Assembly: GCA_048937405.1 (NCBI GenBank)
Contig: JBHLNF010000001.1
Coordinates: forward strand, 224,001 to 288,000
Length of the DNA stretch: 64,000 bases
Direction: 5' to 3'
From: Promethearchaeota archaeon
GTDB taxonomy: Archaea; Asgardarchaeota; Lokiarchaeia; Sigyniarchaeales; SOKP01
This document shows, in pieces, positions 6,424 through 17,762 of this stretch (its first letter is position 1; the number at the start of each line of letters is the position of its first letter). Made by a program: the position numbers and the translations under genes. The notes below the pieces were generated by a model. The model did not search any database and was not told where the DNA came from. It saw only the letters and a program-made list of their open reading frames with translations.

Positions 6424-6580
6424 GGCCCTTGACGGTCGGAATTGCTTGTAGATCATATAGATCTTCAACGATAAGTGGTCTCTGACGTTGGGCTTCAAAC
6501 CCAGTTATCCTGCGGAGGGATAGGAGTTCGATAATCATAAGATGTTATCTTATCTTCGAATGTCTCCTCGAGGGCCGCCA
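6424..6580 (+). tRNA. selC: tRNA-Sec (anticodon TCA at 6495-6497) with two BHB-type introns: 6441-6474 (D arm) and 6533-6562 (T loop, 59/60)
   Basis: After splicing: 9-bp acceptor GGCCCTTGA/TCGAGGGCC, 7-bp D stem GTCGGAG/CTCTGAC with TGGT loop, 6-bp anticodon stem with loop CTTCAAA, long variable arm, 4-bp T stem GGAG/CTCC with TTCGATT, and G73-CCA. This is the 9/4 archaeal/eukaryotic Sec fold, directly upstream of SepSecS. Confidence 0.95.
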
Positions 6581-8783: not shown

Positions 8784-9102
8784 TAATCCTTACTTTTCCT
8801 ATATTGATTAAAAATTAAGTTTGTAGAGATTTAATATTAATAATTGTTGCTATTTTTTCAAAATAGAACTCTTTTTTTTTGATTTCTTTTATTAACTTTA
8901 TTATAAAATTCCTTTAATTTTTGATAAAATCTATTATCTAAAAAATTAATGAATTCAAATTAAGTCAAAGAATAAAATATAGAAATTTCAATTTAATTAC
9001 AAAAAATAAAATTTTTAAGCAGAATAAATTAAGACTACTTCTAAAATAGTAAATAGATTATATAGAAAAACGTGAAATGCATGTTTCACGAACAAAAAAA
9101 AA

Positions 9103-9283
9103 TGGGCCATCGGGGATTTGAACCCCGGATCTCAGGTTTTTACTGTATACGAACATAATTATCAACGTACTTTGTCTGTTCGTAGGTCATTTATAAGACC
9201 TGCGCTTGTTGACCAAGCTTGCAAACCTGTTAACCATTTCAGTCATCTAAAGAAGCTTTAAATGAAAGCTAAGCAAATGGCCC
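9103..9283 (-). tRNA. tRNA-Ile (anticodon TAT) with three BHB-type introns: 9237-9266 and 9208-9230 (D loop) and 9138-9190 (anticodon loop, about 38/39)
   Basis: The spliced 75-nt product GGGCCAT TT GCTT AGCTTGGTTA AAGC G CAGGT CTTATAA ACCTG AGATC CGGGG TTCAAAT CCCCG ATGGCCC A is a clean cloverleaf with a short variable arm. A T-run follows. Confidence 0.88.
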
Positions 9284-10327: not shown

Positions 10328-10401
10328 TAAATTTTTAATTTTTTTCTACTTACTCCCAATTTAATTTTGTAAATAAAAAATAAAAAGGTGAATTTTTTCT
10401 T

Positions 10402-11307
10402 ATACCAATTGGTTGTTTTGTGATATTACTTCCAAATGATGCTGATTATAAGGTTATGGGATATTATTTTAAAGAGAGTAACTCTGATTTTAAAATTTCA
10501 AACGATTTGTTTCTCCGGCTAAATCTTGATCATTCTAAAAATGAATATAATTTATTAAAATTAAAGGATTATCAAATTTTCTCATATCTCTATAATTTTA
10601 AAGGTAAATTAACTCTAAAGGCCTCTGGACTCATTATTGGCTTACTCTTAAATGAGAATGATGAACCAGAAAAATTTCGATCATCTCTTAAAGCTGGGGC
10701 TGAAGCATTCGAAATTCCTAGTCTCAACATTTTGAAAAAATCGACAAATGAATTTGAAATTCTATTAAAGGAGATTTACTTAGAGCATTTAGAACCATTA
10801 GGTGATAGTTTGGAACCTGAAGCTTTAAAAAACAATATTATAAACATAACTAAATTTATGATCAGTGGTGGAAAAAAAGAAAGAAAAATTGCTCAAGAAC
10901 TAGTAGAGAAAATTGAATTAGGGGAACATAATAAAATTTCTGAGTTTTACAAAATGGCTGAAAATGCTATTAAATCGTTAGATTATGAGAAAGCTGCAAA
11001 ATTTTACTTAAAAGCTTCTGAAATAGCTGAAGGGTTATATGTAATGGATATAGCTTCCTTCCTTAAAGAAAAAGGTGCGTTTTCTCAACAAATTCCCGAT
11101 TTATCAAAAGAAAGAGAAAGAATTGTACAAGAAGCACGAAATGCTCTTAGAAATGAAGATTTTCATAAAGCATATACCTCTTACAGAAAAGCAAGCAGTA
11201 TCTCTAAAAAACTTATTCAATATGATAAAGAAGAGGAATATAGACTAAAATCAAAAGCGTTAGAAGACTTCTATAAAATTGATGAAAAATATAGAAAAAA
11301 TAAATAA
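10402..11307 (+). CDS. Hypothetical protein: longin-like N-terminal domain plus helical (TPR/MIT-like) repeats
   Basis: The track ORF starts at GTG 10420, but the frame is open to ATA 10402, giving (M)PIGCFVILL behind an AGGTGA SD. C-terminal AAKFYLKASEIA and AYTSYRKASSIS helical repeats. Domain calls are inference. Confidence 0.6.
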   Translation: MPIGCFVILLPNDADYKVMGYYFKESNSDFKISNDLFLRLNLDHSKNEYNLLKLKDYQIFSYLYNFKGKLTLKASGLIIGLLLNENDEPEKFRSSLKAGAEAFEIPSLNILKKSTNEFEILLKEIYLEHLEPLGDSLEPEALKNNIINITKFMISGGKKERKIAQELVEKIELGEHNKISEFYKMAENAIKSLDYEKAAKFYLKASEIAEGLYVMDIASFLKEKGAFSQQIPDLSKERERIVQEARNALRNEDFHKAYTSYRKASSISKKLIQYDKEEEYRLKSKALEDFYKIDEKYRKNK

Positions 11308-17631: not shown

Positions 17632-17762
17632 GCAACGGTTGCCTAGCCTGGTACGGCGCCGGCTTGGAGTATTATCCCTTCCAGAAAGCCGGTGTGGGTA
17701 TCCACTCGGGGGTTCGATCTATAAGAAGATTCTTCTTGCAGGAATAAATCCCTCCCGTTGCG
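17632..17762 (+). tRNA. tRNA-Ser (anticodon GGA) with two introns: 17670-17686 (37/38) and 17718-17747 (T loop, 58/59)
   Basis: Acceptor GCAACGG/CCGTTGC with G73, anticodon stem CCGGC/GCCGG and a long variable arm. BHB central helices are TTGG/CCAG and GTTC/GAAT, each with 3-nt bulges. Confidence 0.9.

What the first reader, a model, noticed from the sequence alone, without database searches (positions are those of the whole stretch)
9103..9283. tRNA-Ile with UAU anticodon, three introns and a 6-nt micro-exon
Seen: removing three BHB-type introns yields a perfect 75-nt cloverleaf with loop CU-UAU-AA. Exon 2 (UGGUUA, 9236-9231) is only 6 nt. The outer helix of the second intron's BHB (GCU/AGC) forms only after the first intron is removed, suggesting ordered splicing. 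Established: most archaea read AUA with agmatidine-modified tRNA-Ile2(CAU) made by TiaS, whereas an intron-containing tRNA-Ile(UAU) is the eukaryotic solution and is rare in archaea. Inference: this lineage may decode AUA the eukaryotic way, possibly with intron-dependent anticodon modification.
Basis: partly seen in the sequence, partly recalled or inferred. Interest (0 to 1): 0.72.

Follow-up and report, generated by a model that had tools for sequence, protein, structure and literature searches.

The report
Three-intron Asgard tRNA-Ile(UAU), no TiaS
This is a real isoleucine tRNA gene, hidden from standard finders by three introns, that reads the very common AUA codon with a UAU anticodon in a Loki-type Asgard archaeon whose family lacks the usual archaeal enzyme TiaS; a few other archaea are already known to do this.

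Summary
On the minus strand, 9283-9103, removing three inserts (30, 23 and 53 nt) gives a 75-nt cloverleaf that ARAGORN calls tRNA-Ile(UAU). Exon 2 is only 6 nt. Related species fix the boundaries: some lack intron 1, and sister genera lack both D-loop introns and read colinearly with the spliced sequence. Four stems show compensatory changes between genera.

TiaS was not found in this genome (completeness 100), in 0/91 genomes of its family, or in several neighbouring families. It is present in most other families of the phylum. AUA is the ninth commonest codon (36 per 1000). I found only two CAU tRNAs, an initiator and one elongator type, though the tRNA census is incomplete.

The core reading, AUA decoded by a UAU tRNA instead of agmatidine, is therefore well supported.

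- **Ordered splicing:** the outer helix of intron 2 does form only after intron 1 is removed. The genome's two EndA-domain genes suggest a broad-specificity enzyme, so a strict order is not required.
- **Intron-dependent modification:** untested.

Multi-intron Asgard tRNAs and TiaS-less UAU decoding (Nanoarchaeum, Korarchaeum, ARMAN) are both published. This scan has already noted the same arrangement in at least 45 other Asgard genomes. I class it as a new member of a known kind.

The parts
9103..9283 (-). Whole tRNA-Ile(UAU) gene, 181 nt from G1 (9283) to discriminator A73 (9103); no encoded CCA
   Evidence: single copy in the genome
9267..9283 (-). Exon 1 (17 nt): acceptor 5' strand, U8, D-stem 5' strand, start of D-loop (..AGCU)
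   Evidence: boundary fixed by intron-1-less orthologues reading GCTTAGCTTGGTTA
9237..9266 (-). Intron 1 (30 nt) in the D-loop (about 17/17a); central helix UUAG(9272-9269)/CUGA(9242-9239), bulges CU|U and AA|U, 10-bp inner hairpin 9265-9256/9252-9243, outer helix 1 bp
   Evidence: present in 5 and absent in 9 of the genus orthologues recovered full length
9231..9236 (-). Exon 2, 6-nt micro-exon UGGUUA (17a-21, includes G18 G19)
   Evidence: colinear with intron-less D-arms of sister genera
9208..9230 (-). Intron 2 (23 nt) at the D-loop/D-stem junction (21/22); central helix UGGU(9236-9233)/GUCA(9213-9210), bulges UA|A and AC|A, 6-bp inner hairpin; outer helix GCU(9269-9267)/AGC(9206-9204) only after intron 1 is removed
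   Evidence: h 0 -> 3; present in all 22 genus orthologues, absent in genera g14/g16
9191..9207 (-). Exon 3 (17 nt): D-stem 3' strand, G26, anticodon stem 5' strand CAGGU, loop CUUAUAA with anticodon UAU (9195-9193)
   Evidence: loop invariant in 38 loci
9138..9190 (-). Intron 3 (53 nt) beside the anticodon (37/38 by convention, 38/39 in the BHB frame; the run of A makes these equivalent); helix U33-U36 with GUAA 9143-9140; inner hairpin UACGAACA 9184-9177 / UGUUCGUA 9155-9148
   Evidence: hairpin covaries; the four bases opposite U33-U36 vary only in ways that keep pairing (GUAA, AUAA, AUGA, GUAG)
9103..9137 (-). Exon 4 (35 nt): anticodon stem 3' strand, variable loop AGAUC, T-arm, acceptor 3' strand, A73
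   Evidence: the T-arm is the only piece Rfam models see in the raw DNA
9094..9102 (-). Run of nine T directly after A73, terminator-like
   Evidence: 14 of the 15 orthologues printed also show a T-rich tail (L009 ends after three bases)

Best explanation
This is the single functional gene for tRNA-Ile(UAU) of a Loki-type Asgard archaeon. The 181-nt transcript is cut by the archaeal splicing endonuclease at three places: two introns in the D-loop region and one beside the anticodon. The four exons (17, 6, 17 and 35 nt) are ligated into a 75-nt class I tRNA. CCA is then added, and the tRNA, charged by IleRS, reads the abundant AUA codon. It takes the place of the usual archaeal pair, tRNA-Ile2(CAU) plus the agmatidine synthetase TiaS, which I did not find in this genome or in 91 sampled genomes of its family. 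Shown: the gene, the exon boundaries, structural conservation, no detectable TiaS, and heavy AUA use. Inferred: expression, charging with isoleucine, how AUG misreading is avoided, and the order of splicing. Intron 1 probably goes first, or at least helps intron 2, but this is not obligatory.
For: The spliced product is a perfect cloverleaf called tRNA-Ile(tat). Natural controls fix the boundaries: 9 genus orthologues lack intron 1 and read AGC[U/C]UGGUUA, and genera g14/g16 lack introns 1 and 2 and read GCTCAG[A/C]TTGGTTAAAGCGC, colinear with my spliced sequence. There are compensatory changes between genera in four stems: 3:70 G-C to U-A, 7:66 U-A to G-C, 28:42 A-U to G-C, 49:65 C-G to G-C. 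The anticodon loop CUUAUAA is invariant in 38 loci. TiaS domains PF08489 and PF22641 gave no match in the own genome at completeness 100, with 4/4 archaeal controls positive. PF08489 gave 0/91 in the family, while 65/71, 24/27 and 19/19 were positive in other families of the phylum. AUA is 36.1 per 1000 codons, 34% of Ile codons and the 9th commonest codon. Among about 45 tRNA precursors read, only two carry CAU, an initiator and one elongator type. Two EndA-domain genes are present. The nearest tRNAs in TiaS-positive families are tRNA-Ile(GAU), 75-77% identical, which fits isoleucine identity. Precedent for a UAU tRNA with no TiaS exists in Nanoarchaeum, Korarchaeum and ARMAN (PMC6000648, PMC3239211).
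Against: There are no expression or RNA data. The tRNA census is incomplete: about 6-8 expected tRNAs were not located, so a hidden third CAU tRNA is not excluded. The anticodon intron is not a strict BHB, and minimum-free-energy folding does not show the splicing-competent form for introns 2 and 3. The own copy has only a weak A/T-rich stretch where several orthologues have TTTATAATAAT. How a U34 tRNA avoids reading AUG is unknown.
Confidence: 0.85

Rival explanations
1. Different splice sites in the run of A's give another anticodon, for example CUUAAAA (UAA, leucine).
For: The junctions lie in A-runs, so the sequence alone is ambiguous. ARAGORN itself calls the one-intron orthologue L066 'tRNA-Leu(taa)'.
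Against: The helix U33-U36 with RURR, lying exactly 3 nt before position 39, is kept in all 38 loci. With the rule of cutting two bases after that helix on each strand, it gives the 7-nt loop CUUAUAA. The body is class I with a 5-nt variable loop, whereas archaeal tRNA-Leu has a long variable arm (established knowledge). The closest relatives are tRNA-Ile(GAU). tRNA-Leu(UAA) is found elsewhere in the genome.
Confidence: 0.03
2. The gene is a decaying or unexpressed relic, and AUA is read some other way.
For: There are no expression data. The promoter-like element in this copy is weak. Three introns make maturation costly.
Against: The cloverleaf is perfect. The gene is conserved in at least 38 loci of at least 3 genera with compensatory stem changes and covarying intron helices. 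It is single copy, and AUA makes up 3.6% of codons. Most tRNA genes of this genome are equally interrupted.
Confidence: 0.03
3. A hidden tRNA-Ile2(CAU), modified by an unrecognised enzyme, is the main AUA reader, and the UAU tRNA is auxiliary.
For: My tRNA census is incomplete, and profile searches can miss a very diverged or non-homologous enzyme.
Against: There is no TiaS domain match in 91 family genomes, although the same profile finds it in most other families of the phylum. Only an initiator and one elongator-type CAU tRNA were found by two independent screens.
Confidence: 0.07

Closest known systems
tRNA-Ile(UAU) of Nanoarchaeum equitans, Candidatus Korarchaeum cryptofilum and ARMAN-2/-4/-5 (PMC6000648, PMC3239211)
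   Same: An archaeal tRNA-Ile with a UAU anticodon in genomes that lack TiaS and tRNA-Ile2(CAU). The Korarchaeum and ARMAN-2 genes also carry an intron beside the anticodon.
   Different: Those genes have one intron, and in ARMAN-2 it is a strict hBHBh' at 37/38. This gene has three, including two in the D-loop and a 6-nt exon, and its anticodon intron is a relaxed motif. The host is an Asgard archaeon, for which I found no published report.
Multi-intron tRNA genes of Thermoproteales and of Asgard Atabeyarchaeia/Freyarchaeia (PMC4033280, PMC11291895, bioRxiv 10.64898/2026.10.13.758758)
   Same: Several BHB-type introns per gene. The D-arm introns are missed by standard finders. Intron presence differs between close relatives. 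The endonuclease is predicted to be of the broad-specificity kind.
   Different: This is a different Asgard lineage (Loki-type, 29% G+C). The papers I read do not discuss the Ile(UAU) gene or AUA decoding.
Eukaryotic tRNA-Ile(UAU), with intron-dependent pseudouridines 34 and 36 made by Pus1 (PMC4090602)
   Same: A UAU anticodon reads AUA, and an intron lies next to the anticodon and is always kept.
   Different: Nothing here shows pseudouridylation or any need for the intron. Almost all tRNA genes of this genome have an anticodon-loop intron, so keeping it is not special.
Mycoplasma mobile tRNA-Ile2(UAU) (PMC3575796)
   Same: Loss of the C34-modifying enzyme is made good by a UAU tRNA.
   Different: It is bacterial, has no intron and has unmodified U34, with adapted IleRS and ribosome. 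Whether this archaeon uses a similar adaptation is unknown.

Membership tests
tRNA (cloverleaf, Rfam RF00005) | 7-bp acceptor stem, D-arm with G18 G19, 5-bp anticodon stem with a 7-nt loop and U33, T-arm with a UUCRAAU-type loop, discriminator base | tested here: met
   Met for the spliced 75-mer (ARAGORN). The unspliced DNA gives no tRNA match, as expected with three introns.
Archaeal bulge-helix-bulge intron, strict hBHBh' | 4-bp central helix flanked by two 3-nt bulges on opposite strands, plus outer helices of at least 2 bp on both sides | tested here: inconclusive
   Intron 2 meets it only after intron 1 is removed (H4, h3, h'6). Intron 1 is HBh' (H4, h1, h'10). Intron 3 has the 4-bp helix but loops in place of clean bulges. 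So these are relaxed members, as in lineages with (alpha-beta)2 or epsilon2 endonucleases.
Archaeal bulge-helix-bulge intron | The intron is absent from some orthologues, with colinear exons | tested here: met
   Intron 1 is absent in 9 of 14 genus orthologues. Introns 1 and 2 are absent in genera g14/g16. No orthologue without intron 3 was found.
TiaS-independent archaeal AUA decoding by tRNA-Ile(UAU) | UAU anticodon in an isoleucine-type class I tRNA | tested here: met
   closest to tRNA-Ile(GAU) of other families
TiaS-independent archaeal AUA decoding by tRNA-Ile(UAU) | No TiaS gene in the genome | tested here: met
   PF08489 and PF22641 gave no match at completeness 100, with controls 4/4. 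The family scored 0/91.
TiaS-independent archaeal AUA decoding by tRNA-Ile(UAU) | No tRNA-Ile2(CAU): only initiator and elongator tRNA-Met carry CAU | tested here: inconclusive
   Exactly two CAU tRNA genes were found, but about 6-8 expected tRNAs of other kinds were not located, so the census is not complete.
TiaS-independent archaeal AUA decoding by tRNA-Ile(UAU) | Charged with isoleucine, and reads AUA but not AUG | not testable with these tools
   Needs aminoacylation and ribosome-binding assays.
Eukaryote-type tRNA-Ile(UAU) with intron-dependent pseudouridines 34/36 | Pseudouridine at 34 and 36, made only on the intron-containing precursor | not testable with these tools
   No modification data. 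The hairpin-plus-ACA guide proposed in earlier scan notes is not conserved in this genus.

The most novel reading that the evidence does not exclude
The anticodon intron is kept in every orthologue because the precursor, not the mature tRNA, is the substrate for a modification of U34/U36 that stops AUG misreading. The conserved pairing between the 5' end of the intron and the 5' strand of the anticodon stem would then present the anticodon to the enzyme. On that reading, the eukaryotic intron-dependent way of reading AUA was inherited from an Asgard-like ancestor.
Probability: 0.1. Interest if true: 0.8.

Novelty: new member of a known kind. Interest (0 to 1): 0.4.

Why it matters
The gene shows that in a large Loki-type Asgard family the abundant AUA codon depends on one tRNA gene that standard annotation cannot see. 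Automated tRNA sets for these genomes will therefore wrongly appear to lack an AUA decoder, or will mislabel it: ARAGORN calls one orthologue tRNA-Leu(UAA). It also places the UAU solution, otherwise typical of eukaryotes, in close archaeal relatives of eukaryotes. That bears on when the eukaryotic Ile/Met decoding scheme arose. I found no paper reporting this for Asgard archaea. Both the decoding strategy and heavily interrupted Asgard tRNA genes are, however, already published for other lineages.

Tried and rejected
- **Raw DNA searches:** ARAGORN and Rfam on the unspliced DNA find nothing except the T-arm.
- **Automatic census:** an intron-removal pipeline of my own (BHB scanner plus ARAGORN) resolved only part of the tRNA set and failed on CAU candidates. 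I replaced it with reading precursors by eye and a stricter screen. Earlier loose screens gave mostly coding-sequence noise.
- **Wasted search:** the pattern AGCGCNNNNNCTTATAA had the wrong spacing and gave control-level noise.
- **Folding:** minimum-free-energy folding shows the intron 1 motif but not those of introns 2 and 3, so thermodynamics alone neither supports nor refutes them.
- **Intron 1 relatives:** intron 1 has no sequence relatives elsewhere in the genome, so I could not tie it to the mobile ~30-nt mini-intron family noted earlier.
- **Guide-RNA idea:** the hairpin-plus-ACA 'self-guiding' reading from earlier scan notes is rejected for this genus. No ACA is conserved 3' of the hairpin, and U33-U36 are paired in the splicing helix.
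- **Ancestry:** looking for a CAU-type ancestor in TiaS-positive families found only tRNA-Ile(GAU).
- **Literature:** Sugahara 2007 (PMC1852824), on ordered multi-intron splicing, is not held.

Full report
**What is there.** The window is G000:C7:224001-288000 of a 4.47-Mb, 28.9% G+C genome with completeness 100. Earlier notes of this scan call it a Loki-type Asgard archaeon. The minus strand from 9283 to 9103 starts GGGCCAU and ends AUGGCCCA, followed by nine T. ARAGORN and Rfam see no tRNA in the raw window; only the T-arm matches weakly. Joining 9283-9267, 9236-9231, 9207-9191 and 9137-9103 gives 75 nt. All stems are Watson-Crick, the D-loop is AGCUUGGUUA, the anticodon loop is CUUAUAA, the variable loop has 5 nt and the discriminator is A73. 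ARAGORN calls it tRNA-Ile(tat).

- Intron 1 (9266-9237, 30 nt) has a 4-bp central helix, two 3-nt bulges, a 10-bp inner hairpin and a 1-bp outer helix.
- Intron 2 (9230-9208, 23 nt) has a 4-bp central helix and a 6-bp inner hairpin. Its outer helix has 0 pairs in the unspliced RNA and 3 pairs (GCU/AGC) once intron 1 is gone.

Nature supplies the controls. Of the genus orthologues recovered full length, five carry intron 1 and nine lack it. Those nine read GCTTAGC[T/C]TGGTTA, which settles the 75-nt rather than 74-nt product. In sister genera of the same family (L055, L058, L059, L066) both D-loop introns are missing and the DNA reads GCTCAG[A/C]TTGGTTAAAGCGC, colinear with my spliced sequence. 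So the 6-nt exon UGGUUA is real. Other species carry different extra introns: one in the variable loop (L012, L014, L016, L018-L020) and one in the T-loop (L058, L059). Intron 1 is distributed patchily relative to the similarity of the other introns. L002 has it and the near-identical L005 does not; L003 has it and L007, L009 and L016 do not. That points to repeated precise gain or loss.

**Is it a working gene?** Between genera the tRNA shows compensatory double changes in four stems: 3:70 G-C to U-A, 7:66 U-A to G-C, 28:42 A-U to G-C and 49:65 C-G to G-C. The loop CUUAUAA is invariant in 38 loci. The inner hairpin of the anticodon intron covaries: CGAACA/UGUUCG, UGGACA/UGUCCA, CAGACA/UGUCUG, CGGACA/UGUCCG. 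In 14 of the 15 orthologues printed, the gene is followed by a T-rich stretch; the fifteenth locus ends after three bases. Several orthologues have TTTATAATAAT about 30 nt upstream, while the own copy has only a weaker A/T-rich stretch there. The gene lies alone in a 676-nt gap between two plus-strand ORFs and is single copy.

**The anticodon intron.** It is not a strict BHB at 37/38. The conserved central helix is U33-U36 paired with four bases that lie exactly three bases before position 39: GUAA in most loci, AUAA, AUGA or GUAG in others. Every variant keeps pairing. Cutting two bases after this helix on each strand gives the 7-nt loop CUUAUAA. Because of the A-runs, this is the same product as a 37/38 intron. 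The alternative reading CUUAAAA (UAA), which ARAGORN gives for L066, does not fit this geometry. It also does not fit the class I body, and tRNA-Leu(UAA) exists elsewhere in the genome.

**How is AUA decoded?**
- The TiaS domain profiles PF08489 and PF22641 find nothing in this genome, while all four archaeal control genomes score.
- Across 300 further genomes of the phylum at 80% or more completeness, PF08489 gives 0/91 in the own family. It also gives no match in ten further families: 0/9, 0/1, 0/1, 0/2, 0/2, 0/4, 0/14, 0/3, 0/2 and 0/2. Other families score 65/71, 24/27, 19/19, 9/9, 8/9 and 6/6.
- AUA makes up 36.1 per 1000 codons in 1643 long ORFs, 34% of isoleucine codons, and is the ninth commonest codon.
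- Reading about 45 tRNA precursors by eye, I found only two with CAU: an initiator (C3, AGCGGGG.., itself with at least three introns) and one elongator-type gene (C17:141571-141708). A stricter genome-wide screen found the same two.
- The census is not complete. Asn, Phe and some Arg, Leu and Pro genes were not located.
- The exact 14-mer spanning the anticodon stem, loop and intron start occurs in 40/45 genomes of the genus and in 10 of the 12 genera sampled in the family. Chance matches of the reversed control pattern are not negligible, though I did not tally them.

**Ordered splicing.** Intron 1 sits exactly between the outer and central helices of the intron 2 motif, so that motif is strict only after intron 1 is removed. 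In the unspliced RNA, however, intron 2 still has its central helix, both bulges and a 6-bp inner hairpin. The genome has two separate EndA-domain genes (205- and 213-aa frames). That is the make-up of the (alpha-beta)2 enzymes that cut such relaxed motifs in intron-rich archaea (PMC4090602, PMC4033280). I rate a strict order at about one in three.

**What is known.**
- tRNA-Ile(UAU) without TiaS is published for Nanoarchaeum, Korarchaeum (2 of 167 archaeal genomes, PMC6000648) and ARMAN (PMC3239211).
- The bacterial parallel is Mycoplasma mobile (PMC3575796).
- Heavily interrupted Asgard tRNA genes, with up to five inserts and with D-arm inserts missed by tRNAscan-SE, are published for Atabeyarchaeia and Freyarchaeia and in a 2026 preprint (PMC11291895; 10.64898/2026.10.13.758758). 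That preprint does not mention Ile, UAU or AUA.
- No held paper combines TiaS with Lokiarchaea. The one paper with both agmatidine and Asgard states that the UAU solution arose in eukaryotes.
- This scan has already noted the same arrangement in at least 45 other Asgard genomes. Those are unchecked leads, but my searches agree with them.

**Unexplained.** The first bases of the anticodon intron are complementary to the 5' strand of the anticodon stem plus C32: GGUC with GACC in this genus, GGGUC with GGCCC in genus g14. The change at position 28 is matched in the intron, and RNAfold prefers this alternative hairpin. The variation within the genus is transitions that keep G-U pairs, which is weak evidence. 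It could be a folding decoy, a remnant of how the intron arose, or a platform for modification.

**Verdict.** The gene is a new member of a known kind.

Noticed in passing
window 6425-6576 (+): A tRNA-Sec(UCA) gene interrupted by BHB-type inserts, invisible to ARAGORN on raw DNA. After my intron removal, ARAGORN calls tRNA-SeC(tca) of 88-90 nt.
   Followed up: partly
window 17632-17762 (+): A tRNA-Ser(GGA) gene with an anticodon-loop intron and a T-loop intron.
   Followed up: partly
window 9190-9183 with 9201-9197 (minus strand); L058, L066: The 5' end of the anticodon intron is complementary to the 5' strand of the anticodon stem plus C32 (GGUC/GACC here, GGGUC/GGCCC in genus g14). A matched change occurs between genera, and RNAfold prefers this alternative hairpin. 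Its function is unknown.
   Followed up: partly
G000 C3, reverse-strand offsets 10337-10504: The initiator tRNA-Met gene has at least three introns (anticodon loop, variable region, T-loop). My BHB criteria missed the variable-region one.
   Followed up: partly
G000 C17:141571-141708 (-): The only elongator-type CAU tRNA found has a D-loop intron, an anticodon intron and an unusual T-loop CUCGAAU (C at position 54). It lies next to a tRNA-Thr(GGU) gene with a T-loop intron.
   Followed up: no
L066 (G094:C73), locus 1501-1624: ARAGORN labels the one-intron orthologue of this gene tRNA-Leu(taa), because it picks other cut sites in the A-run. Automatic annotations of these genomes may mislabel the AUA decoder.
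   Followed up: yes
whole genome G000: Standard finders recover only about 20 tRNA genes. At least 14 further genes have an intron inside the T-loop after UUCRA.
   Followed up: partly
G047:C67:64341-66105: In one TiaS-positive genome of another family, the tiaS gene lies about 1.4 kb from a tRNA-Ile(GAU)/tRNA-Ala(CGC) pair. This may be coincidence.
   Followed up: no
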